Positions 13,565-52,376 of a stretch of DNA of 64,000 nucleotides are shown in pieces. The notes under the pieces were generated by a model. The model did not search any database, was not told the origin of the DNA, and was given only the letters and a program-made list of their open reading frames with translations. Numbering within the stretch: position 1 is the stretch's first letter; every line of letters begins with the position of its first letter. Source of the DNA: an uncultured Candidatus Binatia bacterium (GTDB taxonomy: Bacteria; Desulfobacterota; Binatia; UBA9968; JAJDTQ01); the NCBI GenBank assembly GCA_965261895.1, contig OZ253480.1, positions 2,727,788 through 2,791,787 on the forward strand, given 5' to 3'. A program made the translations under genes and the position numbers.

Positions 13565-15079
13565 GTGATTGACGCCGCCATAAGTGGTTTGCTCCAGGTA
13601 CTGTCCTGGCCGGCTTTCGGTTTCCTTCTGATCGGCGGAGGAATCGGCTTCGTCGTGGGCATTCTACCCGGCCTTGGGGGGTTGACCACCCTGGCCCTGA
13701 TGCTCCCCTTCGCCTACACGATCCAGGAGCCCATCGCGGCCTTCTGCTTCCTGCTTGGAATGCACGCCATCACCGGTACCACCGGAGACATCACCTCCAT
13801 CCTCTTCGGCATCCCGGGCGAGGGAACCTCGGCAGCTACGATCATGGACGGCTACCCCATGACCAAGAACGGCCAGGCGGGAAGGGCTCTGGGGGCTGCC
13901 CTGATGAGCTCACTCGTAGCCGGACTTGAAGGCGCCGTCATTCTGGCTATCTCGATCCCGATCATGCGGCCTCTCGTCCTGTTTTTCGGCGCACCCGAGC
14001 TTTTCATGCTCGCCATCCTGGGGATCACTTTTCTGGCCACTCTCAGCAGTTCTTCGCTCAGCAAGGGCGTCCTGGCCGGCGGTATCGGGCTCGCGATCTC
14101 CTCGGTTGGCATTGAAGATCATACGGGGACGCTTCGCTATACCATGGGGACCATCTATCTCTGGGAGGGATTGAGTCTGGCGCCTGTCGTCGTGGGGCTC
14201 TTCGCCTTTCCGGAGATCGTGGACCTGGCGGTGAGGGGTTCAAGCATTGCCGAATCCAAGGTGGGCAAAATCAGTGGAGTGATGGAGGGGGTCAAGGATA
14301 CCTTCCGGCATTTCTGGCTCACCATGCGTTGCGGCATGATCGGCGTTCTTGTCGGGGCCGTGCCCGGAGTAGGGGGCGGCGTCTCCCAGTGGATGGCTTA
14401 CGCCCATGCGGTGCAGAGTTCCAAGGACAAGCACCGTTTCGGCAAGGGGGCGGTGGAAGGAGTACTGGGACCCGGCGCCGCGAATAACTCCAAGGAAGGA
14501 GGGAACCTCATCCCGACCGTAGCCTTCGGAGTTCCGGGGACCACAGGAATGGCGATTCTCCTCGGGGCTTTTCTGATCGTCGGCCTGACGCCCGGCCCGG
14601 AAATGCTGACCAAGCACCTCGACGTCACCCTCGCGATGGTCTGGATACTGGTCATCTCCAATATCCTTGCCGCCGGCGTCGCTTTCCTGTTTCTCAGCCA
14701 GCTCGTCAAGCTCACCTTCGTGCGGGGAAATCTGCTCATTCCTTTCCTGGTTGTGTTCGTATTCCTCGGCGCCTTTTCGGCAAACAACGATTTCGCGGAT
14801 ATCGTGGTGGCCTGTGTTTTCGGCGTGCTGGGCTATTTCATGGTCCTTTTCGGATGGCCGAGGGCTCCGTTCGTTCTCGGTCTGGTCTTGGGGCGCCTGG
14901 CGGAGAGGTACCTCGGGATCTCGCTGGGCGCCTACGGCACCGGCTGGCTTCTCCACCCGCCCGTAATCGTCATGATAGTGATATTGTTGGGCAGCGTTTC
15001 CTATAGTGTGTACAAGAGGATGAGAAACAGCGATCAGGCGGTTGAGGGCCGCGTAGAACAGGACGAAGAAGGGGTATGA
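13565..15079 (+). CDS. TctA-family large membrane subunit of a tripartite tricarboxylate-type transporter
   Basis: 504 aa polytopic membrane protein with TctA signature blocks (GIPGEGTSAATIMDGYPM). Confidence 0.85.
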   Translation: MIDAAISGLLQVLSWPAFGFLLIGGGIGFVVGILPGLGGLTTLALMLPFAYTIQEPIAAFCFLLGMHAITGTTGDITSILFGIPGEGTSAATIMDGYPMTKNGQAGRALGAALMSSLVAGLEGAVILAISIPIMRPLVLFFGAPELFMLAILGITFLATLSSSSLSKGVLAGGIGLAISSVGIEDHTGTLRYTMGTIYLWEGLSLAPVVVGLFAFPEIVDLAVRGSSIAESKVGKISGVMEGVKDTFRHFWLTMRCGMIGVLVGAVPGVGGGVSQWMAYAHAVQSSKDKHRFGKGAVEGVLGPGAANNSKEGGNLIPTVAFGVPGTTGMAILLGAFLIVGLTPGPEMLTKHLDVTLAMVWILVISNILAAGVAFLFLSQLVKLTFVRGNLLIPFLVVFVFLGAFSANNDFADIVVACVFGVLGYFMVLFGWPRAPFVLGLVLGRLAERYLGISLGAYGTGWLLHPPVIVMIVILLGSVSYSVYKRMRNSDQAVEGRVEQDEEGV

Positions 15080-15100
15080 GCACCGATAGGTACGGGACCA

Positions 15101-15289
15101 CTAGTGTGGTGTGTCACAAATACGGTTATGAAGATGCGAGGGCATTTTGGTTGTCGGCAAGGCGCGATGACTTGTAGGGGCGACCGGCGGTCGCCCCCCA
15201 GTGGCGTGCACCACGCGAGGAAGAGCAACGCAGCCGACGGCCAAAAGGACCCGCAGATTCATAACCTTATTTGTGAGACACCACACTAG
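15101..15289. mobile_element. MITE copy A (189 bp; TIR CTAGTGTGGTGTGTCACAAATAC; core variant GGGCGACCGGCGGTCGCCC)
   Basis: Terminal inverted repeats ctagtgtggtg...caccacactag. It sits between the TctA-family gene and the DUF1989 gene. ORF-track entry 15104..15289 is its translation. Confidence 0.8.
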
Positions 15290-15304
15290 ATTCAGGGAGG
15301 GCCA

Positions 15305-15937
15305 ATGATGAGCACCGATGCAGACAAGATCCCCGGAAAAATCATCGACGACAGAATCATCGGACCAAGGGGGCATTGCGCCTGGGAAGTCCGGGAAGGA
15401 GAGGTGTTCCGCATCGTCGATATCGAGGGGCAGCAGGTGATGGATTTCCTGGCTTTCAATCTGAATGATTTGGATGAAAGACTCTCCCCGGAGAACACCT
15501 TGAACCTTAACAAGCAGATTTATCCGACGGTCGGCTACACCCTGCTCTCGGATAAAGCCGGCAAGCTCATGACGATTGTGGCGGATACTTGCGGCACCCA
15601 CGACATGCTCGCAGGGGCCTGCTCCAGCTATACCAACGAATACCGCTACGGTGTTCCGGGCGCTGCCAATTGCCGGGACAACTTCGTCGCCGCTCTCAAA
15701 CCGTGGGGACTTGGATGGAAAGACATACCCTACAACATGAACGTCTTTATGAATTGCCCCATCCAGGCTGACGGGACGTTCTCCATCGAACCACCGAAAT
15801 CCAAGGCGGGCGATTACATCGACTTCAGGGCCGACATGGATGTCCTGGTTGCCGGGTCGAACTGCCCCCAGGTGCTCAATCCCTGCAACTCCGGGGATTT
15901 GAAGCCGTTGCGGGTGGTCCACTACAGGCCCGGATAG
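15305..15937 (+). CDS. DUF1989 (urea-carboxylase-associated) family protein
   Basis: 210 aa with the family-typical C-terminal block (GDYIDFRADMDVLVAGSNCPQ). Confidence 0.6.
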   Translation: MMSTDADKIPGKIIDDRIIGPRGHCAWEVREGEVFRIVDIEGQQVMDFLAFNLNDLDERLSPENTLNLNKQIYPTVGYTLLSDKAGKLMTIVADTCGTHDMLAGACSSYTNEYRYGVPGAANCRDNFVAALKPWGLGWKDIPYNMNVFMNCPIQADGTFSIEPPKSKAGDYIDFRADMDVLVAGSNCPQVLNPCNSGDLKPLRVVHYRPG

Positions 15938-15980
15938 CAAGATCTTCTTCTGGTCCCAAACAAGGGGAGCTTCTAACCAT

Positions 15981-17072
15981 ATGAAGGGAGGCAACACCAT
16001 GAAGTGGGCGAGTAAGACCTTGATCCTGGCGGTTGCGGTCTGGGTATTTCAGGGCTCGATGCCGGGAACTCCGGGATCAGCCCAGGCCCAAACGAAACCG
16101 TACTATGAGGGCAAGACCATCCTGGTCATCGTCGGGTCCGGGCCCGGTGCGGGAAATGACATAAGGACGAGGTTGTTTGCCCGGCACGCGGCCAGGCATC
16201 TGCCCGGCAAGCCGCATCTCGTCGTGCAAAACAGGAGCGGGGGCGGTGGTCTCCGAGCGCGCAACTACCTCTACAACATCGCCAAACCGGATGGTTTCAC
16301 CATTGCGGAGATCATCAGAGGCACGGGTCTCCAGCACGCCATCAACGAACCGGCGGCGCGCTTCGAGGCCGACAAGTTCAACTGGATCGGAAACCTGACC
16401 ACGGCGACGGCGATCTGCACGGGTCGTATCGACCGGGTAGGGGCGAATCTCGAAGAGGCTATCAAGCGTTCCAAGAAGACCCAGTTGCGTAGCGGCGAAA
16501 CGAGCGGGAACAGCACCGGCGCGGCCATAGGGAAGATGCTGAAGAGGTTTACCGGCATCAACACGAGGCTGGTGGTGGGCTATCAGGGCGGCGCGCCCAT
16601 CGATCTGGCCATGGAGAAAGGGGAGGTGGACATGCGCTGCGGCTTCGTGTGGAGCTCGGCCAAGACCAGGAAACGGCACTGGTTCGCTCGCCTGGGAAGC
16701 AAGACGCCTTTCACCTCCGTGCTCGTCCAGGTCGCGACGAAGCGGCATCCCGAGCTGTCGGACATTCCAACACTGATAGAACTCGCACCGGACAAGGCAT
16801 CAAAAGATGTCGCGGAGATGCTGACGTTGACGTACCGGAATGCCTACCCGATGCTCGCCCCTCCGGGAACGCCCAAGCACGTGGTAAAGATTTTGCGGGA
16901 TGCCTTTTGGGCCACCGTCAATGACCCGCAGTACCTCGCGGACGCAAAGAAGATCGGCTATCTGGACGACGAACCGCTGAGGGGGCAGGAGGTGCAGGAA
17001 CTCATCGGAAAGATCGTGTCGGCGCCGGAGGAATCCAGAAAACTCATGGCCAAGATCATTGCCGCACAGTGA
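15981..17072 (+). CDS. TctC/Bug-family periplasmic substrate-binding protein
   Basis: 363 aa with a signal peptide and Bug-family fold blocks. Confidence 0.8.
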   Translation: MKGGNTMKWASKTLILAVAVWVFQGSMPGTPGSAQAQTKPYYEGKTILVIVGSGPGAGNDIRTRLFARHAARHLPGKPHLVVQNRSGGGGLRARNYLYNIAKPDGFTIAEIIRGTGLQHAINEPAARFEADKFNWIGNLTTATAICTGRIDRVGANLEEAIKRSKKTQLRSGETSGNSTGAAIGKMLKRFTGINTRLVVGYQGGAPIDLAMEKGEVDMRCGFVWSSAKTRKRHWFARLGSKTPFTSVLVQVATKRHPELSDIPTLIELAPDKASKDVAEMLTLTYRNAYPMLAPPGTPKHVVKILRDAFWATVNDPQYLADAKKIGYLDDEPLRGQEVQELIGKIVSAPEESRKLMAKIIAAQ

Positions 17073-17160: not shown

Positions 17161-18555
17161 ATGTCCTTGTCAATGAAACCGGATCCCGGTTCCGGGGGAG
17201 AAAAGTCCGTGGATGAAAGCCCAAGTACAGCGACGCAAGGTTTGTCTCGTCAAATCGCCGAATTCACCGTGTCATTGAGCCTGGACCGGCTTCCCGCCAA
17301 CGTACTGTCCAACGCCAAACTTGCCATTCTCGACTGTCTCGGCGTGTCCGTTTTGGCCGCGGGTGAAGAGATCGGCGACAAGTTGCTGCGGTACGCCCGC
17401 AACAACCTCGGGCCGGGATCATGTACGGTTTGGGGGTCCGATTTCACGTTGAATCCAAGAGATGCCGCGCTGGTGAACGGGACTCTGGCCCATGGCCTGG
17501 ATTTCGACGACAGGGGCCATGCCTCCACCTACACGTTGGCGGCCGCGTTGGCGGCAAGCGAAGGCTGCCAAGCGTCCGGCGCCAGGACATTGGAGGCGTT
17601 TATCGCGGGTCGCGAAGCCATGATGACCCTGGAACCCCTCTTCGCCAGACGAAGCAGCGGCATTGGGCCTGGGGCGCGGGGGTGGCATAGCAATGGGATC
17701 CTTGGCCCCATCGCGGCTGCCTGTGCCGCAAGCAAGATCCTCGACCTCGATGTCTCGCAGACCCTTACCGCCATCGGGCTTGCCACCGGCTCATGCGGGG
17801 CATTGACCAGAGATGGCGGGACCATGGCGAAACCGTTTCGGGTCGGCCACGCCGCATCCGCGGGCCTCACTTGCGCATACTTGGCCCAGGAGGGGTTCAC
17901 CAGCGATGAGACCGCCGTCGAGGGCTCATACGGCCTTCTGGATGCCGTCGGCCCGCTCCAGGACGATATACTGGAGGCCCTGGGAAGGGGGCTCGGGACC
18001 GATTACCGCCTCGGCAAGGAGGTCAAGCTGAAGCGGTTCGGTTCCTGCACCGCTACGCATGACGGGGTCGAGGCGATGCTGAGGATGGTTCAGGAGAATA
18101 GGCCACTGGCGCCTTCCGAAATAGACTTCATCGAGTGCGACATGCACCCGTACCCGCTGGTGAGAATGCAACCGGAACGGGGTTTTGAAGGACGGTTCAG
18201 CATGGCCTACTGCCTCTCCCTGGCTCTCCTTTACGGAGGACTGGACCCTGAGAACTTCACCGACGAACGAGCCCGGGATCCGGAGTTGAGGAACCTGCTC
18301 GGGCGCGTTCGCCACGTTCCCGGATCGGACTCGCTGGTCGTGCGTTTGAAGGACGGCACAACCGTCACCGAACCTGTTCGAACCCCGGCGGATCTGAAGG
18401 GACGGGAGGCGGTGCTGGACAAGTTCAACGACAGCGTTGACAGGATTCTGTCCGAGGCGCAAAGGGCGGCCGTACCGGACCTCGTGGACCGCCTGGAGCA
18501 AAGCCCCTCGATCGAGCCGTTGATGGAAGCGCTCCGCCGGCAGCCGGCCTACTGA
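17161..18555 (+). CDS. MmgE/PrpD-family protein (2-methylcitrate dehydratase-like)
   Basis: 464 aa with conserved MmgE/PrpD N- and C-terminal domains. Confidence 0.85.
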   Translation: MSLSMKPDPGSGGEKSVDESPSTATQGLSRQIAEFTVSLSLDRLPANVLSNAKLAILDCLGVSVLAAGEEIGDKLLRYARNNLGPGSCTVWGSDFTLNPRDAALVNGTLAHGLDFDDRGHASTYTLAAALAASEGCQASGARTLEAFIAGREAMMTLEPLFARRSSGIGPGARGWHSNGILGPIAAACAASKILDLDVSQTLTAIGLATGSCGALTRDGGTMAKPFRVGHAASAGLTCAYLAQEGFTSDETAVEGSYGLLDAVGPLQDDILEALGRGLGTDYRLGKEVKLKRFGSCTATHDGVEAMLRMVQENRPLAPSEIDFIECDMHPYPLVRMQPERGFEGRFSMAYCLSLALLYGGLDPENFTDERARDPELRNLLGRVRHVPGSDSLVVRLKDGTTVTEPVRTPADLKGREAVLDKFNDSVDRILSEAQRAAVPDLVDRLEQSPSIEPLMEALRRQPAY

Positions 18556-18664
18556 GTCGAGCCCGAGACGTTTACGTTTGCCTACGCCTTCGTCGAGACG
18601 GTACCGCCGAGATCTCCGAACTGCGGGGCGCCGGAGCGCGCCCCGGTTTCGAAATCGCGGAATA

Positions 18665-19816
18665 TCACCCTATTCCATAGAATTTGGCGGCATTCTCCCA
18701 CGTAAGCTGCCGCTCCACCGCATCGGACATACCTTCGAACTGGCGCTTGACGGCCTCCCTTGATTGAGGCCAGGTCGCACCGCCGTGTGGATAGTCACTA
18801 GCCCACATGATGTTGTCGAGCATCCCGAAGACTTCCGCTCCAAGAATGCCGGCGCGATCCTCCTGGAACGTCACGTAAACCTGGCGTCTTATCATTTCAC
18901 TGGGAAGTGCCGAATCCCTACCCGCCACCGAGGCCTCGGATCGGGCTCTTTTCAAGGCGGAATCCATGCAGTTCAAATAGGGCACGATCCAGGAGAGGTC
19001 ATACTCCGCAAAGACCACACGCAGCCGTGGATGATTCTCAAGCGCCCCTCCAAACGTCAGCTCCGTCAGGAGCCCGAGAGGCTCCAGGATGCCGCGTCGC
19101 AACGAGTTTTGACCCTGTTGAACCGGCGAGATCTTCTTGAGCCGCGCCCGCATCCTGTCCACGCCCTGCAGGATATTGACATGAATGTGGATGGGGAAAT
19201 CCATGTCCTCGGCTTTGGTCCACAGGGGTTCAAATTCCGGATCGGCATAGCTCATTCCTTCGGGCAAACCGGAAGGTATGAGCGCGCCTTTATGTCCGAG
19301 CTTGGCACAGCGCTCCATTTCCTTCAGCGACCACTCGACATCGAGCGCCGACAGAATACATAAGGCGACAAGACGATCGGGCGCGACGTTGGCGTATTCG
19401 ATAAGCCAGTCGTTGTATGCGATGAGGCCCGCTTTCTGCAGCTCGGTCTCCTCCCCCTTGAGCGAGAAAAAATTGCGAGTCAGACTCGGGTAGAGCACCT
19501 CCGTCCTGACTCCGTCGAGGTCCATGTCGCTCAAACGTGCCGTGGGGTCCCAGGGACCACGCCAGTCTTCCCACTGGAAATTCTCGATAACATCGATGAT
19601 TTTGCCACCCTTCGCTTGTACCCCGGCGGTAAAGGTCATGCCTACCGGGTCCGGTTCATGGCCATCGAAAACCATGTAGAGACCCTTCTTTCCCGGCGGA
19701 TCCTGGACAAAGTGAGGTCCGTGTTCGCGTAGTCTCTTCGGTATTCGCTCCCAAGCCTCCGGCGGCTCATTGACATGCGAATCCGCGGAGAAGAACCTTA
19801 CCTGTTCCGGTGCCAT
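18665..19816 (-). CDS. Amidohydrolase-2 (ACMSD-like metal-dependent hydrolase/decarboxylase) family protein
   Basis: 383 aa with an N-terminal SHVNEP metal-binding start typical of amidohydrolase 2. Confidence 0.8.
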   Translation of the reverse strand: MAPEQVRFFSADSHVNEPPEAWERIPKRLREHGPHFVQDPPGKKGLYMVFDGHEPDPVGMTFTAGVQAKGGKIIDVIENFQWEDWRGPWDPTARLSDMDLDGVRTEVLYPSLTRNFFSLKGEETELQKAGLIAYNDWLIEYANVAPDRLVALCILSALDVEWSLKEMERCAKLGHKGALIPSGLPEGMSYADPEFEPLWTKAEDMDFPIHIHVNILQGVDRMRARLKKISPVQQGQNSLRRGILEPLGLLTELTFGGALENHPRLRVVFAEYDLSWIVPYLNCMDSALKRARSEASVAGRDSALPSEMIRRQVYVTFQEDRAGILGAEVFGMLDNIMWASDYPHGGATWPQSREAVKRQFEGMSDAVERQLTWENAAKFYGIG

Positions 19817-19837
19817 GGCTTGCCTCCTCTGTTCTCG

Positions 19838-19885
19838 ATTTGAGAACCACCTACACTAGTCATCGCGTCTTGCCGACAAAAGAGT
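19838..19885. repeat. Degenerate MITE remnant (TIR-like ...gagaaccacctacactag joined to internal segment tcatcgcgtcttgccgacaaaag)
   Basis: Resembles the right TIR plus an internal core-flank segment of the MITE family, in the divergent promoter region. Confidence 0.35.
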
Positions 19886-20097
19886 CCCGCGTAGCTTGCC
19901 ACGCGTTGATGTGGTACAGGCCACTACTCAGCCTTTGTGAAACCTTGGTCGTTATGACCGAGGACCGAAGAGAACCCAGTGGAGAGTATCTATAAGTATG
20001 TCCGACTGTCAAACACGCAAAACTCACGGTAGTGCCACACGATATTCTACAACGCGGAGGGCAAAATTCCCCGTCATCTGATTCATGAACGAACAGC

Positions 20098-21249
20098 GTG
20101 AACGAGATGCGGTTCATCGCTGTCCGGTTCTGGCTGATCCTGATCTTGGGAGGCGGTCGCCAGGACTCTCTTGGTGTCACATGCCGGGTTTACTGCTTCT
20201 GCCTGGCGACGGCCCTTTTGTGTCTCTTGCCCGGGCCGGTGCAGCCAGCCTCGCTGGACGACGAGTTCGTTACCTCCAAGCGTCACTGGGCCGTCACCGA
20301 CACGAAGTTCGAGCTCTCGTCCAAGCGCTATCGTCTCAACAAGAATGTACGGCACCCGCAACCCGTCATCCTCATCCACGGCCTGTTGGTGAACAGCGGC
20401 TTCCTCGACTTTGGCGGCGCCAGCCTGGCCGAATACCTGGCAGAGGCGGGGTTCGACGTCTGGAACCTGTCGCTCCGAGGCACCGGCCGGAGCCTCAGCC
20501 CTCTGGGTTGGGGGCAAAAGCCCTGGACCCTGGACGAAATCCTGAAGGACGACCTCCCGACGGTCATCGGATACGTCAAGAAGACCACCGGTAGCGCGAA
20601 CGTCTTTCTGGTGGGTTACGAGCTGGGCGGGGCGTTGGCCTTCGCGCATGTCGGCAAGGATCGAGAGCACGGAGTCGCCGGGATCGTCGGCATCGCCTCG
20701 CCGATGTCCTTCGACAGCCCCGAGCAGGACCGGCTCGACGTCCTGGTCAAGCTCGACCGCCAGCCGGTCCTGCGTAACACCCTTCTCTATGCGAACTCGT
20801 CCGGGCTGAACCGGTTTCTCTTCATGGTTCCCGGGTTCGAGGACACTTTCTACAATCCCGGGAACATGACGGAGCGGGTCAAAAAAGAGTTGCTGGAATC
20901 CCTCCTGGTCTCGGTCAACCCCGGCGTGCTGGATCAACTCATTACAACCGTGAACAAGGACGAGTTCGTCTCCGCCGACGGCGCTTCCAGCTACCGCGAC
21001 ACGCTGTCCGAAATTCGTATCCCGGTTCTCCTGATAGGGGGCGCGGCCGACCCCATCGCACCGCCGGAAGCCCTGAAAAAGCTCTACTCGGAGCTTGGCT
21101 CGGAGGACCGGGACCTCATGATCTTCTGGTCGGATCCCGACGAGGACATCAGCTACGGCCATTTCGACCTGATTCTCGGGAAGAACGCCGAAGCCGACGT
21201 CTTTCCGCTCGTCCGGGGATGGCTCGAATCCAGAAGCCTGTCCCAGTAG
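20098..21249 (+). CDS. Secreted or membrane-anchored alpha/beta-hydrolase fold protein
   Basis: 383 aa with an N-terminal hydrophobic segment. The HGLLVNSG oxyanion region is present, but the nucleophile elbow reads GYELGG (Glu where Ser is expected). Confidence 0.6.
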   Translation: MNEMRFIAVRFWLILILGGGRQDSLGVTCRVYCFCLATALLCLLPGPVQPASLDDEFVTSKRHWAVTDTKFELSSKRYRLNKNVRHPQPVILIHGLLVNSGFLDFGGASLAEYLAEAGFDVWNLSLRGTGRSLSPLGWGQKPWTLDEILKDDLPTVIGYVKKTTGSANVFLVGYELGGALAFAHVGKDREHGVAGIVGIASPMSFDSPEQDRLDVLVKLDRQPVLRNTLLYANSSGLNRFLFMVPGFEDTFYNPGNMTERVKKELLESLLVSVNPGVLDQLITTVNKDEFVSADGASSYRDTLSEIRIPVLLIGGAADPIAPPEALKKLYSELGSEDRDLMIFWSDPDEDISYGHFDLILGKNAEADVFPLVRGWLESRSLSQ

Positions 21250-48355: not shown

Positions 48356-48409
48356 GTGCCCAACGACGCGGGTCCGTGCGGCCAGACGAGAACCTTCCAC
48401 GAGAACGCC

Positions 48410-48994
48410 ATGTCCGATCCCGACAAACCCGAAGTTGAATCCCCCGCCACCGAGACAGCGGACGTCGGCGCCGGCGACACCACCGTTCAAGAGGTGAAGT
48501 GGTGGATCGACACAGGAAACAAGCAACAGTCGGAAACGGATGAACGGGTCCCCAAGGGCGTGATCGAGCGCTGGGCCTTCGACCTGCTGAAGGATTACCG
48601 GCAGGAACGGGCGCTGCAGAACATCGTGGATATCAACGGCCAGGTCCTGCGCGAGCTCGGCAACAACGAGGAAAGGTGGGTCTACCTGTCCCTCGGCGTC
48701 GGCGAGTTCCCCCCGAAACGGCTCAACTACATCAAGGATTCGCTGAGAATTCCGCGCTACGCCCGCGCCCTGGCCATTGACGCCGGCTATTCGATCCGTG
48801 TCCTCATCACCGGCAACCCTCCGGGCGAAAAAGTGCTGGACATCAACTTCACCGAAGCTCCGTCCATGGACTACTGGAACAGCGGCGAGCTGATCGAGGA
48901 GCAGATGTTCCGCTCCATCGAGGACGCCCTCAAACGGTTGCGGAACTCGATCCACCGCTACTTGCGCAAGAGCACCGTGGAGACGCAAATATGA
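48410..48994 (+). CDS. Hypothetical protein (about 195 aa)
   Basis: ORF 48356..48994. Probable ATG at 48410 (MSDPDKPEV). The stop overlaps the ATG of a small ORF (48991) leading into the DUF2384 frame. Confidence 0.5.
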   Translation: MSDPDKPEVESPATETADVGAGDTTVQEVKWWIDTGNKQQSETDERVPKGVIERWAFDLLKDYRQERALQNIVDINGQVLRELGNNEERWVYLSLGVGEFPPKRLNYIKDSLRIPRYARALAIDAGYSIRVLITGNPPGEKVLDINFTEAPSMDYWNSGELIEEQMFRSIEDALKRLRNSIHRYLRKSTVETQI

Positions 48995-49130
48995 AGACCA
49001 AGGCCGTGGAGCGTAGGTGCTCTGGCAGGGCTCTTGATGTCCTGACGGAAAGAAGGATTACGGACGAGGAGATCGGCTGCCCGATCATGAAACCCCGACC
49101 CTTTCCTACCAAAAAGCAGGGGGCGGGAGG

Positions 49131-49346
49131 TTGACGGTCGAAGAATCCGACCGCGCGGTACGGGTGGCTCGGGTCATCGCGCTGGCGGAGAGAACTTTCG
49201 CCAACCAGGACAAGGCCCACCGCTGGCTTCACAAGAACCTCGTTGCGTTGGATGATCGCCGGCCCATCGACATGATCCAAACGACAGCCGGAACCCGCTT
49301 GGTTGAAGACATGCTGGCAAAGATCGCCTGGGGCGCAGCGGCGTGA
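49131..49346 (+). CDS. DUF2384 (Xre/MbcA/ParS antitoxin C-terminal domain) protein fragment; the N-terminal part lies in a different frame (48991..49134)
   Basis: TTG start. The FANQDKAHRWLHKNLVALDDRRPIDMIQTTAGTRLVEDMLAKIAWG block matches the toxin-binding domain of RES-partner antitoxins. No RES toxin ORF follows. Confidence 0.5.
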   Translation: MTVEESDRAVRVARVIALAERTFANQDKAHRWLHKNLVALDDRRPIDMIQTTAGTRLVEDMLAKIAWGAAA

Positions 49347-49491
49347 TGGGTCTGTGGGGACTTTGAGACGCCGAGGATGCCGAATGCGATCCAAGGCTCC
49401 TCGCATGGGTTGACCGGGTGGCTCTCCCGCACGTCCATGTGCTTCTTAGGTCTCTTTTTGACTTAGATGGACTCGAAAAAACGCTCTTCGA

Positions 49492-49860
49492 TTACGATCT
49501 CTTCCTTTTCGATCCTGGGCGTCTTAACGCCTGTTCCCTTGCGTCCGCTTCTCTGACTCGTTGGTCTGAATCGAGACTTCGGCCGTGATCGGTTATTGAC
49601 CAAATCCCGCGTCTGCGTTTGTCAACGGCTCCGACATGCTTCAGGCGTGTTCTTGCCCATCCCGCTCTATAATCAAGCTTCGGTTGTCGGCTCTCTCCCT
49701 GAAGCTCCTCGAGGACCTCATCGGAAAGCTCCATGATCTCAGCAATCTCTTTCGAGATCTCCTGGACCGAAGCAGACCCGCCAGTCTTGACCAGGGCCTG
49801 CAATGTAGGCCACATCAAGTCGATTTGTGTTGGCATTCTGTGGTTGCTCACGTGAATCAC
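49492..49860 (-). CDS. Stand-alone Mrr N-terminal winged-helix domain protein (no nuclease domain)
   Basis: 122 aa with the family block IDLMWPTLQALVKTGGSASVQEISKEI...YRAGWARTRLKHVG...RGIWSITDHG. It lies in the lower-GC stretch. Confidence 0.55.
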   Translation of the reverse strand: MIHVSNHRMPTQIDLMWPTLQALVKTGGSASVQEISKEIAEIMELSDEVLEELQGESRQPKLDYRAGWARTRLKHVGAVDKRRRGIWSITDHGRSLDSDQRVREADAREQALRRPGSKRKRS

Positions 49861-49867
49861 TATTCAC

Positions 49868-50653
49868 TCAAGCAGATACGCGACTGAGAATCTTTCGCTC
49901 AAGATCGCCGGTCGATTCGAGCGAAGAGACCATTTCCCCGCCCACATCTGACAACCGTGCAAGATCCAGTCGTGGGATCTCTGCCTGATCTTCAAAGACC
50001 AGTATGGAATCGAACTTGAGACTATTCCGGTGGAAGTGTGACAGTATGATAGTGGTAAGTCGGGCCTTGTCTCGGTTCGGAATGCCGTAGAGGAACAACG
50101 GTCGATCATACCGTCCCTCAATTCTGTAGTCGACAGGGTAGGCTTGGGGATTCGGCAACCCCTCCGGCAGATAGTCGGCCTGTATCTTGTCCTCGTCGAT
50201 CCGGCTCTTCAGAAAGTCGGCAAGGTCGTCGTAGAAGGTCGACCTGACACGCGATCGAGACAAAAACGTCAAATCGTGGATTCTCGTCAACGCTTGTCCA
50301 AAGCGGAAGATAGCCTCAGGCAGCCGTTCGATAGGAGCATCCACATGGAACGCACCGCCATCCCGCTCGATTCCAGTCTCGCCGACGATGCGCTCCAACA
50401 GCTCTCCCCGCGCACCTTCCAGAAACGAGTCAATATCGTGGTCGTAGCTGAGGTGCGTGAGAGTATGGCCGCTATCCGACAGGCGAATGCCTCCGGTACC
50501 GGCTTCCGAGACATGCATCGGGAACCGGTCTCCGTCGGGAAACTCAAATTGCGTACGCAACATTAATGCGCCGTCAGGCCGTTCCGTTAGCTGAACATCC
50601 TCGCACAAACGTTCACACAAGAGCCGCTGCAGCGCATTTGTGTTGATCGGCAT
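49868..50653 (-). CDS. Hypothetical protein (261 aa), second gene of a coupled pair
   Basis: ORF 49868..50704. The ATG at 50651-50653 overlaps the TGA of the upstream gene (ATGA). Lower GC than flanking genes; no recognisable motif. Confidence 0.5.
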   Translation of the reverse strand: MPINTNALQRLLCERLCEDVQLTERPDGALMLRTQFEFPDGDRFPMHVSEAGTGGIRLSDSGHTLTHLSYDHDIDSFLEGARGELLERIVGETGIERDGGAFHVDAPIERLPEAIFRFGQALTRIHDLTFLSRSRVRSTFYDDLADFLKSRIDEDKIQADYLPEGLPNPQAYPVDYRIEGRYDRPLFLYGIPNRDKARLTTIILSHFHRNSLKFDSILVFEDQAEIPRLDLARLSDVGGEMVSSLESTGDLERKILSRVSA

Positions 50654-51126
50654 CAGAGTAACCTCGGGTGATCGTGGGCCGCAGTAAGTCCGACGACGTT
50701 GCAATCGTCAATCAGACAGGCCAATGCCCCCTCCAGGGTTTCGTAGCGACCCGTTTCTTCCGCTTCGCGTTCTGGCTTCAGCCCAGCCGCGATCGCTCTT
50801 TCCGTCGCCCGGTGGATATGTACCCGATAGTGTATGTCGCCGTGTTCGTGCCCCGGGCCGTTGTAGCGGGCCAGTGTGAGTCTGGAGCCGTCCAGGGCGA
50901 CGTAGACGATCCCGCAGGAGAAGTCCGACTGATCCAACAGACCCTCGCGTTGATAGATCTCGAATCGAGATTCCTCTCCCCCCTCGCCTACGGCCTTGAA
51001 CGATCGTTGCTTGTGAACCGGTGCTACGGTCGGCTTTTCCGACCATCGTGAGTTTACATTGGATACCCGTTTGCGCACGGAACGAAGTCGGTCCAACTCT
51101 TCGTCCGTATATAGCCGTTGCACCAC
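50653..51126 (-). CDS. Hypothetical protein (157 aa), first gene of a coupled pair
   Basis: ORF with a His-rich segment (YNGPGHEHGDIHYRVHIH). Lower GC; no recognisable family. Confidence 0.5.
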   Translation of the reverse strand: MVQRLYTDEELDRLRSVRKRVSNVNSRWSEKPTVAPVHKQRSFKAVGEGGEESRFEIYQREGLLDQSDFSCGIVYVALDGSRLTLARYNGPGHEHGDIHYRVHIHRATERAIAAGLKPEREAEETGRYETLEGALACLIDDCNVVGLTAAHDHPRLL

Positions 51127-51266
51127 GTCTTCAACCAGCCTGGCCGAATTCCGATATCACAGTCGGCTCGTCGATGGATAGCCGGTGAAATCGCTCATGC
51201 TGCTCGACACGCAAGCGAAACTGCCTAGCGACAACTACGGGCCACTTCTTTGTCCCGGCCACCGGG

Positions 51267-52376
51267 TCAACCGGCGGCGCCGCCCCGCCGGATGGTGCCG
51301 GGGCGCATGGGGAAGGGGACCGAGTCGGTGATCTCCAGGCCGTAGCCGGAGAGGCCCACGAGGTTTCTGGGGTTGTTGGTGACGAGCCGGAGCTTGCGCA
51401 CGCCCAGGTCGCGCAGGATCTGGGCGCCGATGCCGAAGTCGCGGAAGTTCCTGGCCTCTCTGGCTTCGGCGGTGCGCAGGCCCTTGCCTTCGGGCTGGAG
51501 GTAGAGCAGGACGCCCGCGCCTTCCTTGGCGATCAACTCCATGGACTGCTTGATGACCGACCCGGTGTCGAAGAACTCGAAGCCGAACACGTCGCCGGGG
51601 AGGAACTTGGTGCACACCCGCACCAGGGTCTCGCGGTCCTCGGAGATCTCACCCTTGATGAGGGCCAGGTGCTCGGCGGAATCCACGTGGGTGTTGTAGA
51701 CCACTGCCCGAAACTCGCCGCCGTAGCGCGTCGGCAAGCGGGTGGTGGCCACCCGGTGGATCAGCGAGTCGTGCTTGAGGCGGTACTGGATGAGGTCGGC
51801 GATGGTGCAGATCTTGAGGTCGTACTTCTCGCCGAACTCCTCGAGGTCCGCCAGCCGCGCCATGGTGCCGTCATCCTTCATGATCTCGCAGATCACGCTG
51901 GCGGGCCTGAGCCCCGCCAGCCGGCAAAGGTCCACGGAGCCTTCGGTCTGACCCGTGCGTACCAGCACGCCGCCTTCCCTCGCCCGCAACGGGAAGATGT
52001 GCCCGGGCGTGCACAGGTCGGCGGGTCCGGCGTCGTCGGCAATGGCGGCGAGGATGGTCTCGGCCCGGTCGGAGGCCGAGATGCCGGTGGTAACGTTCTT
52101 GACGCCGTCGATGGAGACCGTGAACGCGGTGCCGAAGGGCGCCGTGTTGTCCCTCACCATCATGGTGAGGCCGAGCTGGTCGACCTTGTCCTGGGTAAGC
52201 GGCAGGCAGATCAGGCCCCTCCCCCAGGTGGCCATGAAGTTGATGGCCTCCGGGGTGACCAGTTCCGCGGCCATGGTCAGGTCACCCTCGTTCTCGCGGT
52301 TCTGGTCATCCATCAGGATGACCATCTTGCCTTGCCTGATGTCTTCAAGCGCTTCTTCTATGGTGGCTACGGGCAT
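51267..52376 (-). CDS. ribBA: 3,4-dihydroxy-2-butanone-4-phosphate synthase fused to a GTP cyclohydrolase II-like domain lacking the zinc-binding Cys triad
   Basis: 369 aa. The N-terminal DHBP synthase is intact (RENEGDL, TAFTVSID). In the C-terminal domain the expected CxxGC...C pattern reads VCTKFLPGDVFGFEFFDTG. Confidence 0.8.
   Translation of the reverse strand: MPVATIEEALEDIRQGKMVILMDDQNRENEGDLTMAAELVTPEAINFMATWGRGLICLPLTQDKVDQLGLTMMVRDNTAPFGTAFTVSIDGVKNVTTGISASDRAETILAAIADDAGPADLCTPGHIFPLRAREGGVLVRTGQTEGSVDLCRLAGLRPASVICEIMKDDGTMARLADLEEFGEKYDLKICTIADLIQYRLKHDSLIHRVATTRLPTRYGGEFRAVVYNTHVDSAEHLALIKGEISEDRETLVRVCTKFLPGDVFGFEFFDTGSVIKQSMELIAKEGAGVLLYLQPEGKGLRTAEAREARNFRDFGIGAQILRDLGVRKLRLVTNNPRNLVGLSGYGLEITDSVPFPMRPGTIRRGGAAG

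What the first reader, a model, noticed from the sequence alone, without database searches (positions are those of the whole stretch)
49350..51260. Lower-GC islet with an uncharacterised, translationally coupled two-gene operon next to TA/restriction remnants
Between the DUF2384 antitoxin fragment and ribBA the base composition drops visibly. The islet carries a stand-alone Mrr N-terminal winged-helix protein (49492-49860, no nuclease domain). It also carries two overlapping (ATGA) minus-strand genes, 50653-51126 (157 aa) and 49868-50653 (261 aa). The 157-aa protein has the His-rich segment YNGPGHEHGDIHYRVHIH. Neither protein matches a family I can recognise. The combination of compositional anomaly, tight coupling, small protein followed by mid-size protein, and adjacency to degraded toxin-antitoxin and Mrr-like genes is the typical signature of a horizontally acquired defence or addiction module. 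This is the best candidate in the window for an undescribed system.
Basis: inference. Interest (0 to 1): 0.7.

Follow-up and report, generated by a model that had tools for sequence, protein, structure and literature searches.

The report
Conserved two-gene candidate phage-defence module
The low-GC islet holds a tightly coupled gene pair, a small four-histidine protein plus a sensor-nuclease-like protein, that travels as a unit between distant bacteria and prophages, often sits inside restriction-modification operons, and is a distant relative of an untested candidate anti-phage system (PADLOC PDC-M24).

Summary
Window 49350-51260 is the lowest-GC 1.9-kb stretch of the window. It carries two translationally coupled minus-strand genes, A (157 aa) and B (261 aa), followed by a stand-alone Mrr_N gene.

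The proteins are not family-less. B has a Pfam DUF1828 N-terminal domain and a C-terminal domain with a PD-(D/E)xK restriction-endonuclease-like fold. A is a divergent branch of Pfam DUF6978, with four near-invariant histidines and no fold match among solved structures.

A is followed immediately by B in 83 of 83 related loci from 13 or more phyla, and the stop/start overlap is kept. In 38 of 81 distinct loci the pair is embedded between the helicase and methylase genes of a Type III-like R-M operon. Other copies of that operon carry known defence cargo in the same slot. In proteobacterial prophages the pair lies just downstream of the cI repressor.

Phage-borne homologues hit both PADLOC PDC-M24 models, so this is a distant member of a catalogued but untested defence candidate. 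The Mrr_N gene and the antitoxin fragment are incidental neighbours. In this Binatia lineage the pair is inherited at a fixed site after ribBA. Mechanism is unproven; interest is moderate.

The parts
50653..51126 (-). Gene A: 157-aa stand-alone protein, a divergent DUF6978 / PDC-M24A-like relative, with a confident predicted fold that has no solved relative
50812..50868 (-). Conserved core of A: R87-Y-N89-G90-x-x-H93-x-H95 ... H103-x-H105. Inferred to be a metal-binding or catalytic site.
   Evidence: K19, R60 and R87 are invariant. S70, G72, L85, N89, G90, H93, H95, H103 and H105 are at least 90% conserved in an alignment with 29% mean column identity.
49868..50653 (-). Gene B: 261-aa two-domain protein (DUF1828 domain plus restriction-endonuclease-like domain), PDC-M24B-like
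   Evidence: Pfam DUF1828 E=1.1e-16. PADLOC PDC-M24B E=7.9e-15, matching residues 18-150 only. phrog_5059 E=2.9e-31. 1247 homologues. AF2 pLDDT 88 with two domains.
50261..50653 (-). B N-terminal domain (residues 1-131; Pfam DUF1828 covers residues 34-125). Inferred sensor or partner-binding domain.
   Evidence: Conserved polar residues across both subfamilies are C13, C17, D40-G-D42, S59-D60, T64, S69-Y70, D73, R82, E92, Q120 and R124.
49871..50236 (-). B C-terminal domain (residues 140-261) with PD-(D/E)xK-like alpha-beta-beta-beta-alpha-beta topology
50651..50665 (-). Coupling junction: GAGG ribosome-binding site (50662-50665) and TGATG stop/start overlap (50651-50655)
   Evidence: Sequence. 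The stop/start overlap is kept across the family: -4 nt in 30 loci, -1 nt in 28, -17 nt in 11 and -11 nt in 10, of 83.
51137..51263 (.). 127-nt lineage-specific insertion between the ribBA stop and the A start. It is not part of the module; syntenic genomes have a 13-nt gap here.
   Evidence: Alignment. The sequence is unique in the window. No promoter-like site was found in it.
49492..49860 (-). Neighbour, not part of the module: a stand-alone Mrr_N winged-helix gene in the variable spot downstream of B
   Evidence: Pfam Mrr_N E=1.7e-23. Absent from all 83 other A-B loci. Absent from the syntenic locus L017.
49131..49346 (+). Neighbour, not part of the module: an N-terminally truncated Xre/ParS (DUF2384) antitoxin remnant without its RES toxin
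   Evidence: Pfam Xre_MbcA_ParS_C E=9.5e-15. NCBIfam models are matched only over their C-terminal 70 positions, below the cut-offs.

Best explanation
Genes A and B form an autonomous, horizontally mobile two-gene module of the DUF6978 + DUF1828 (PADLOC PDC-M24) type. Its most likely role is anti-phage defence or superinfection exclusion.

Proposed working, all of it inferred and none of it shown: the two proteins are made in a fixed ratio by translational coupling and act as a complex. B is the effector. Its C-terminal domain has a restriction-endonuclease-like fold and would cut nucleic acid once its N-terminal DUF1828 domain is engaged by a trigger or by A. A is a compact protein whose conserved four-His/Arg/Lys/Ser/Asn cluster probably binds a metal. 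It would be the obligate partner that gates or senses for B.

The module is expressed from whatever operon it lands in. Here that is downstream of ribBA. In about 40% of genomes it is inside a Type III-like R-M operon. In prophages it is in the cI repressor operon.
For: Shown:
- The pair is a strict unit. B follows A in 83 of 83 loci, and the stop/start overlap is conserved.
- A and B distance matrices correlate (Mantel r=0.76; 0 of 999 permutations reach it).
- Both genes are under purifying selection: dN/dS 0.10-0.14 for A and 0.07-0.09 for B.
- Transfer is wide: 54-86% identity across 13 or more phyla. GC is below the flanks in 74 of 78 loci.
- Embedding: in 38 of 81 loci the pair lies on the same strand between, or next to, a ResIII helicase and a PADLOC MTase_III methylase, often with overlapping stop and start codons.
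- The pair is facultative cargo: 0 of 80 other copies of that operon carry it. About 20 of those copies hold Fic/SoFic-like, GmrSD_N, Schlafen/AlbA_2, DUF4062 or DUF3800 genes in the same slot.
- It also occurs inside or next to Hma-type loci.
- Prophage context: in Pseudomonas aeruginosa, Comamonas and Kushneria prophages the pair follows the cI-like repressor on the repressor strand.
- Homology: the phage pair is 37-38% identical to A and B and hits PDC-M24A (E=1e-8) and PDC-M24B (E=1e-13). Window B hits PDC-M24B directly.
- Fold: two methods place the B C-terminal domain among PD-(D/E)xK nucleases.
Against: - No member of the family has been tested. PDC systems are explicitly untested candidates.
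- Window A does not itself hit the PDC-M24A or DUF6978 models. The link is transitive.
- B lacks a canonical (D/E)xK on the third strand, so nuclease activity is uncertain.
- REC-like alpha/beta domains superpose on part of B about as well as the nucleases do.
- The window's own copy is not embedded in a defence system. It follows ribBA and has been kept vertically in three Binatia genomes.
- More than half of the immediate neighbours outside R-M contexts are ordinary genes.
Confidence: 0.6

Rival explanations
1. A purely selfish addiction (toxin-antitoxin-like) module. One protein is toxic (B as a nuclease, or A as a metal-dependent enzyme) and the other neutralises it. This would stabilise the DNA segment that carries the pair, such as R-M operons and prophages, without protecting against phage.
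For: - The layout is a small gene followed by a larger gene with translational coupling.
- The pair shares the R-M cargo slot with bona fide MNT/HepT toxin-antitoxin pairs, found in 14 and 9 loci.
- Its distribution is mobile and patchy.
Against: - Both proteins are unusually well conserved for a toxin-antitoxin pair. A is a well-folded protein with an enzyme-like conserved cluster, with no Pfam match to a DNA-binding or any other known family and no long low-confidence segment in the model.
- No hit to any toxin or antitoxin family in Pfam, NCBIfam or PADLOC.
- The position in the prophage cI operon is typical of exclusion genes.
- Many toxin-antitoxin systems also defend, so this rival overlaps with the best explanation.
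Confidence: 0.2
2. An accessory or regulatory component of methylase-based defence operons. It might control the timing of restriction versus methylation, or act as a backup that fires when the surrounding R-M is inhibited. On this reading it is not an independent system.
For: - 38 of 81 loci are embedded in the same Type III-like res/mod/UvrD operon, on the same strand and often with overlapping stop and start codons.
- Other loci are in Hma-type methylase systems.
- There is precedent: PrrC within Type I R-M, as discussed in the paper read.
Against: - 0 of 80 other copies of that operon carry the pair, and most have res and mod directly adjacent.
- The pair occurs with no methylase nearby in the window itself, in L004 and L017, and in prophages.
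Confidence: 0.1
3. A phage-encoded counter-defence or lysogeny-control function that has been domesticated in bacterial chromosomes.
For: - Both proteins match PHROG families of unknown function.
- The pair occurs in temperate phages next to cI/cro.
Against: - Most occurrences of the window-type subfamily are chromosomal, inside defence operons, with no phage genes nearby.
- No window-type copy was found in IMG/VR viral contigs.
- Anti-defence genes are normally expressed early in the lytic cycle, not from the repressor strand.
Confidence: 0.05
4. A housekeeping function linked to riboflavin synthesis or metal handling, since the pair lies directly after ribBA in three Binatia genomes and A has a histidine cluster.
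For: - The gap between ribBA and A is 13 nt in L004 and L017.
- Four histidines are conserved.
- dN/dS is close to that of the housekeeping flanks.
Against: - The ribBA context is confined to one lineage. The other 78 or more loci have unrelated neighbours.
- GC is lower than in the host.
- The pair also occurs in prophage and R-M contexts.
Confidence: 0.03

Closest known systems
PADLOC PDC-M24 (two-gene 'phage defence candidate', cassette FAM_00129>>FAM_00065; Payne et al., bioRxiv 10.1101/2024.01.29.577857)
   Same: - Same two-gene order and sizes: about 150-170 aa followed by about 255-260 aa.
- Window B hits PDC-M24B (E=8e-15).
- Phage homologues of A and B hit PDC-M24A and PDC-M24B.
- Same habit of lying embedded inside multi-gene defence operons.
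   Different: - Window A has no hit to any PDC-M24A model, so a model-based PADLOC scan should miss the A component here.
- Window B matches only the N-terminal half of the PDC-M24B profile.
- The embedding host here is a Type III-like res/mod/UvrD operon, whereas the PADLOC screen used BREX, DISARM and Type I R-M.
- PDC-M24 itself is untested, so nothing is known about its function.
Pfam DUF6978 (PF22398) and DUF1828 (PF08861)
   Same: - B passes the DUF1828 threshold (61 bits against a cut-off of 22).
- Relatives of A pass the DUF6978 threshold (46 bits against 29.6).
- Adjacent DUF6978 and DUF1828 genes are seen in prophages of three genera.
   Different: - Window A does not reach the DUF6978 model, even at E=10.
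- Neither family has an assigned function.
- The C-terminal domain of B is not covered by any Pfam model.
Two-domain sensor-plus-PD-(D/E)xK nucleases (NucS/EndoMS, SfsA, Can2/Card1) and CCGG-family Type II restriction enzymes (PspGI, AgeI, NgoMIV)
   Different: - There is no sequence similarity.
- The N-terminal domain of B is DUF1828, not CARF, OB or the NucS N-domain.
- The canonical (D/E)xK on strand 3 is absent.
- B needs a conserved partner gene.
Lambda rexAB, sieB and other exclusion genes in prophage immunity regions
   Same: The position and strand are the same: directly downstream of the repressor gene, and so presumably expressed in the lysogen. That rexAB occupies this position in lambda rests on my own knowledge.
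   Different: No homology was found: no Rex family hits in Pfam. Neither protein matches a Pfam membrane-protein family; transmembrane segments were not predicted. The resemblance is positional only.
PrrC in Type I R-M, and BrxU/GmrSD in BREX (embedded backup defences)
   Same: These too are defence genes nested on the same strand inside a methylation-based system (discussion in the paper read). GmrSD_N genes occupy the same res|mod slot in other copies of the operon.
   Different: The proteins are unrelated, and no functional link between A-B and the host R-M has been shown.

Membership tests
PADLOC PDC-M24 | Gene B homologous to the PDC-M24B models | tested here: met
   PDLC04539 E=7.9e-15 and PDLC04540 E=1.4e-13. 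Only residues 18-150 match, against profile positions 17-147 of 255.
PADLOC PDC-M24 | Gene A homologous to the PDC-M24A models | tested here: inconclusive
   Window A has no hit at E<=0.1. Its phage homologue (38% identity, E=9e-34) hits PDLC04538 at E=1.2e-8, and other family members hit weakly. Membership is therefore transitive only.
PADLOC PDC-M24 | Two adjacent same-strand genes in the order A then B | tested here: met
   True in the window and in 83 of 83 related loci.
PADLOC PDC-M24 | Found embedded within known multi-gene defence systems | tested here: met
   Met for the family: 38 of 81 loci are in or next to a Type III-like res/mod operon, and others are in Hma-type loci. Not met for the window's own copy, which follows ribBA.
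PADLOC PDC-M24 | Anti-phage activity | not testable with these tools
   PDC systems are described as untested candidates. No paper mentioning PDC-M24, PF08861 or PF22398 was found.
Pfam DUF1828 (PF08861) | Score above the gathering threshold | tested here: met
   61.3 bits against a cut-off of 22, over residues 34-125 and the full profile 1-91.
Pfam DUF6978 (PF22398) | Score above the gathering threshold | tested here: inconclusive
   Window A has no hit even at E<=10. Homologues L084:5001-5519 (46.2 bits), P0343 (39.2) and P0367 (35.5) pass the 29.6-bit cut-off. The precomputed Pfam annotation gives DUF6978 for the prophage partner genes.
PD-(D/E)xK nuclease superfamily (B C-terminal domain) | Restriction-endonuclease-like alpha-beta-beta-beta-alpha-beta core fold | tested here: met
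PD-(D/E)xK nuclease superfamily (B C-terminal domain) | Catalytic D on strand 2 and (D/E)xK on strand 3 | tested here: inconclusive
   D175 (in P-V-D) is conserved at the start of strand 2. Strand 3 (PLFLYG) has no acidic residue or lysine. A conserved D195-K196 lies at the start of the next helix and D143 lies in helix 1.
Type II toxin-antitoxin system | Recognisable toxin and antitoxin domains, with an antitoxin carrying a DNA-binding or disordered region | tested here: not met
   No toxin or antitoxin family hit for A or B in Pfam, NCBIfam or PADLOC. A is modelled as a compact fold with pLDDT 92. Toxicity is not testable here.
Mrr-type Type IV restriction enzyme (neighbouring gene C) | Mrr_N domain plus a C-terminal Mrr catalytic domain | tested here: not met
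   Only Mrr_N is present, in a 122-aa protein. The mREase_IV profile is matched at positions 3-91 of 317.
Lambda RexAB-like exclusion genes | Homology to RexA or RexB | tested here: not met
   No such Pfam hit for A or B. Only the position downstream of cI is shared.

The most novel reading that the evidence does not exclude
The DUF6978 + DUF1828 pair is a genuine anti-phage system with a mechanism not yet seen. A small tetra-histidine metalloprotein of a fold absent from the PDB would gate, or work with, a DUF1828-sensor/PD-(D/E)xK-like nuclease. The system would serve both as an embedded backup inside methylation-based defence operons and as a prophage exclusion cassette. The window-type clade would be a habitat-specific lineage, apparently in marine-sponge symbionts, exchanged among more than a dozen phyla.
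Probability: 0.4. Interest if true: 0.65.

Novelty: new member of a known kind. Interest (0 to 1): 0.5.

Why it matters
If the pair defends against phage, it would give two large domains of unknown function (DUF6978 and DUF1828) a role, and it would validate one of the 145 untested PADLOC candidates. Gene A alone has 990 clusters at 50% identity.

It would also add a protein fold with no solved relative to the defence repertoire. And it would give a clear example of one cassette used both as cargo inside R-M operons and as a lysogen-expressed prophage gene.

Relatives exist in cultivable Pseudomonas aeruginosa, Comamonas and Kushneria prophages, so the question is directly testable. For this window, the practical result is that the islet is a stable, functional module rather than debris, and that the Mrr_N gene and antitoxin remnant next to it are unrelated passengers.

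Tried and rejected
- Mrr_N gene as a third component: rejected. It is absent from all 83 other loci and from the syntenic locus L017.
- A-B as an integral part of the Type III-like R-M operon: rejected. 0 of 80 other copies of the operon carry it.
- Sequence relatives with solved structures: none for A, with either a close or a diverse profile. Only chance-level hits for B.
- The AlphaFold-database libraries were not available, so A could not be compared with predicted structures.
- Homology between A and B (an internal duplication): none, hhalign probability 0.9%.
- Fusions of A that might hint at function: a few longer proteins were found. One has an AAA_14 region upstream of the A-like part and may be a gene-call artefact; the others have no extra domain.
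- Plasmids: no hit. IMG/VR viral contigs with the window-type profile: none. With the phage-type query: 5 identical UViGs.
- RNA elements: no Rfam family or tRNA anywhere in the window.
- Terminal repeats or transposon ends around the islet: only short, probably chance, repeats.
- Promoter upstream of A: none found by the sigma-70 scan.
- Literature on DUF1828, DUF1829, DUF6978, PDC-M24 and the Pfam accessions: no functional study found.
- A structure prediction of the A-B complex was not possible within the quota.
Full report
**What is in the sequence.**
Window 49350-51260 has GC 0.558, against 0.631 +/- 0.026 for all 1.9-kb windows, and is the lowest such stretch in the 64 kb. Three minus-strand genes are packed there:
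- A: 50653-51126, 157 aa, GTG start.
- B: 49868-50653, 261 aa.
- C: 49492-49860, 122 aa.

The A stop and the B start share one base (TGATG), and a GAGG lies 8 nt upstream of the ATG. C is an Mrr_N winged-helix domain only (E=1.7e-23) with no catalytic domain. On the plus strand, 49131-49346 matches only the C-terminal 70 positions of Xre/ParS antitoxin models, and no RES toxin follows, so it is a remnant. The window has no tRNA or Rfam element. The islet has no convincing terminal repeats.

**The two proteins have families.**
B carries Pfam DUF1828 at residues 34-125 (61 bits, cut-off 22) and hits PADLOC PDC-M24B (E=8e-15, N-terminal half only) and phrog_5059. A has no Pfam, NCBIfam or PADLOC hit of its own, but it matches phrog_27326 at E=3e-36.

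A has 489 close homologues of 60-99% identity, nearly all 157-160 aa. It has 990 clusters at 50% identity in an exhaustive profile search, almost all stand-alone proteins of about 155-165 aa. A homologue in temperate Pseudomonas phages (38% identical, E=9e-34) passes the Pfam DUF6978 threshold (46 bits against 29.6) and hits PADLOC PDC-M24A (E=1e-8). Its downstream neighbour is 37% identical to B and hits PDC-M24B. The window pair is therefore a distant branch of the DUF6978 + DUF1828 pair that PADLOC lists as PDC-M24.

PDC-M24 is a two-gene cassette (FAM_00129>>FAM_00065). It is one of 145 candidates found by 'guilt-by-embedding', and the authors state that these candidates are untested. I found no functional paper on DUF1828, DUF6978 or PDC-M24.

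**Structure.**

Residues conserved across both subfamilies of B include D143, D175 (in YPVDY), D195-K196, S216, D230 and R233. Strand 3 lacks the canonical (D/E)xK, so nuclease competence is plausible but not established. The DUF1828 domain keeps many polar residues: C13, C17, D40-G-D42, S59-D60, T64, S69-Y70, D73, R82 and E92. That fits a binding pocket. A and B are not related to each other.

**The pair is a unit.**
A scan of one genome per species found 181 relatives of A. In all 80 fetched loci, and in 3 more from contig look-ups, B lies immediately downstream of A. The stop/start overlap is -4 nt in 30 loci, -1 nt in 28, -17 nt in 11 and -11 nt in 10 of the 83. Pairwise distances of A and B correlate (Mantel r=0.76; 0 of 999 permutations reach it). 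The Mrr_N protein C occurs in none of these loci.

The hosts span Binatia, Acidobacteriota, Chloroflexota, Gemmatimonadota, Alpha- and Gammaproteobacteria, Nitrospirales, Entotheonella, Spirochaetia, Rhodothermales, Acidimicrobiia, Latescibacterota, Verrucomicrobiota and Thermodesulfobacteriota, at 54-86% identity. That pattern implies horizontal transfer. The pair has lower GC than its flanks in 74 of 78 loci.

**History in this lineage.**
Two other Candidatus Binatia genomes (L004 and L017) carry ribBA-A-B at the same chromosomal place, flanked by the same pyrF/proS side and nuo side. Flank identities are 81-95%, A is 83-87% and B is 90-91%. dN/dS is 0.10-0.14 for A and 0.07-0.09 for B, close to the flanking housekeeping genes at 0.03-0.14. 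The pair is therefore functional and vertically kept here, not freshly acquired.

The variable part is the spot downstream of B. L017 has a 107-nt intergenic region there, the window has gene C plus the antitoxin remnant, and L004 has other genes. The window also has a private 127-nt insertion between the ribBA stop and the A start; the other two genomes have 13 nt there.

**Genomic company elsewhere.**
I called genes myself and clustered the five neighbours on each side in 81 distinct loci. Two families recur:
- A protein of about 1027 aa upstream, on the same strand, in 32 loci. It has a ResIII helicase domain and weak REase_III hits.
- A protein of about 930-1100 aa downstream, on the same strand, in 37 loci. 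It is an N6_N4_Mtase and hits PADLOC MTase_III model PDLC03632 at E=0.

Both occur together in 31 loci, and either one in 38. A UvrD/GajB-like helicase follows the methylase in 9 loci. MNT/HepT pairs (14 and 9 loci) and DUF2283 genes (7 loci) recur among the five neighbours on either side, usually in the same res-mod gap. Other loci lie inside Hma-type (DUF1156/DUF499) systems, or next to AAA_15/21 ATPases, IetA and similar genes. Many remaining neighbours are ordinary genes.

To ask whether A-B is integral to that operon, I fetched 80 metagenome loci that carry the same helicase at 65-70% identity; there were at least 600 hits. None has A or B. In about 50 of them res and mod are directly adjacent. 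In about 20 the gap holds other cargo: Schlafen/AlbA_2+HATPase_c_4, Fic/SoFic-like, GmrSD_N, DUF4062, DUF3800 or ORF6N. The res|mod junction is therefore a cargo slot, and A-B is one facultative occupant beside known defence genes. This independently reproduces the logic by which PDC-M24 was nominated.

**Prophages.**
In Pseudomonas phages (PQ758389 and relatives) and in prophages of P. aeruginosa (243 index blocks of the collection), Comamonas aquatica and Kushneria sinocarnis, the gene order is cro <- | -> cI-like repressor (Peptidase_S24), then 0-2 small genes, then DUF6978, then DUF1828. In lambda, rexAB occupies this position as lysogen-expressed exclusion genes; that comparison rests on my own knowledge. 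No window-type copy was found in IMG/VR or in plasmids.

**Interpretation.**
The best-supported reading is an autonomous, mobile, two-protein module that works in conflicts with mobile elements, most likely phage defence or exclusion (confidence about 0.6). B would be a sensor-nuclease effector and A its obligate metal-binding partner. The unit character, selection, transfer, embedding, prophage position, homology to PDC-M24 and the nuclease-like fold are shown. The activity, the A-B complex, the trigger and the catalytic competence of either protein are inferred.

The rivals are:
- a purely selfish toxin-antitoxin-like addiction module (0.2);
- an accessory of the surrounding methylase operon (0.1);
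- a phage counter-defence or lysogeny function (0.05);
- a housekeeping role tied to ribBA (0.03).

**Novelty and score.**
The pair is a new, divergent member of a catalogued but uncharacterised candidate family. Because A has no hit to the PDC-M24A models, a model-based scan would probably miss it. It is not categorically new. The points of interest are the fold of A, which has no solved relative; the very high conservation across phyla; the double life as R-M cargo and prophage gene; and the availability of cultivable hosts for a direct test. I score interest at 0.5.

Noticed in passing
window 51137-51263: A 127-nt insertion between the ribBA stop (51267-51269) and the start of gene A. It is absent from the syntenic Binatia loci L004 and L017, where the gap is 13 nt. 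It is unique in the window and has no sigma-70-like promoter match. Its origin is unknown.
   Followed up: partly
window 48995-49867; L004:9256-11662; L017:9260-9366: The spot downstream of B is variable among three syntenic Binatia genomes. It is 107 nt in L017, holds Mrr_N plus a truncated Xre antitoxin in the window, and holds about 2.4 kb of other genes in L004. It looks like a small integration hotspot.
   Followed up: partly
L020-L040 and L085-L164 (e.g. L033:4748-7831, L040:9280-12105, L027:12193-14265): A very conserved three-gene operon: a ResIII helicase of about 1027 aa, a PADLOC MTase_III (PDLC03632) of about 940 aa, and a UvrD/GajB-like helicase of about 690 aa. It has at least 600 metagenome hits at 65-70% amino-acid identity. 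Its res|mod junction acts as a cargo slot for A-B, MNT/HepT, DUF2283, Fic/SoFic-like, GmrSD_N, Schlafen/AlbA_2, DUF4062, DUF3800 and ORF6N genes. The helicase gives only weak REase_III hits, so the operon may not be a standard Type III system.
   Followed up: partly
window 49868-51126 compared with L004 and L017: Synonymous divergence of A and B between the window and L004/L017 (dS 0.56-0.97) is about twice that of the flanking genes (0.26-0.41). Between L004 and L017 it equals the flanks. This could reflect allelic replacement by recombination in the window lineage, or weaker codon bias.
   Followed up: no
locus list (L004-L083): Hosts of the window-type pair look like marine-sponge symbiont consortia: Entotheonella, Caldilineaceae, Vicinamibacterales, Binatia, and bins named COS/RHO/Plut/SB06. 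A GPP34 gene lies near the pair in L003. None of the 80 metagenome loci with the same R-M operon (habitats not recorded) carries the pair. Habitat metadata were not checked.
   Followed up: partly
window 49300-49316 and 51121-51137: A 17-nt imperfect inverted repeat (88% complementary) brackets genes C, B and A. One arm is the native start region of A and the other lies inside the antitoxin remnant, so it is probably chance.
   Followed up: no
window 14601-16511 and 18501-20411: These are the next-lowest GC stretches of the window (0.576 and 0.575). The gene at 18665-19816 (-) is an amidohydrolase_2/PtmU3-like enzyme. The gene at 15101-16000 (-) has no solved relative. They appear metabolic rather than defence-related.
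   Followed up: partly
window 48356-48994 (+): A 212-aa ORF with no hit in Pfam, NCBIfam, PADLOC or PHROGs. It is conserved at 79-82% identity in L004 and L017 as a 195-aa gene, so it is a lineage-specific protein of unknown function.
   Followed up: no
protein P0277 (342 aa): An A-like domain (residues 192-328) preceded by an AAA_14 ATPase region. It is either a rare fusion or a merged gene call.
   Followed up: no
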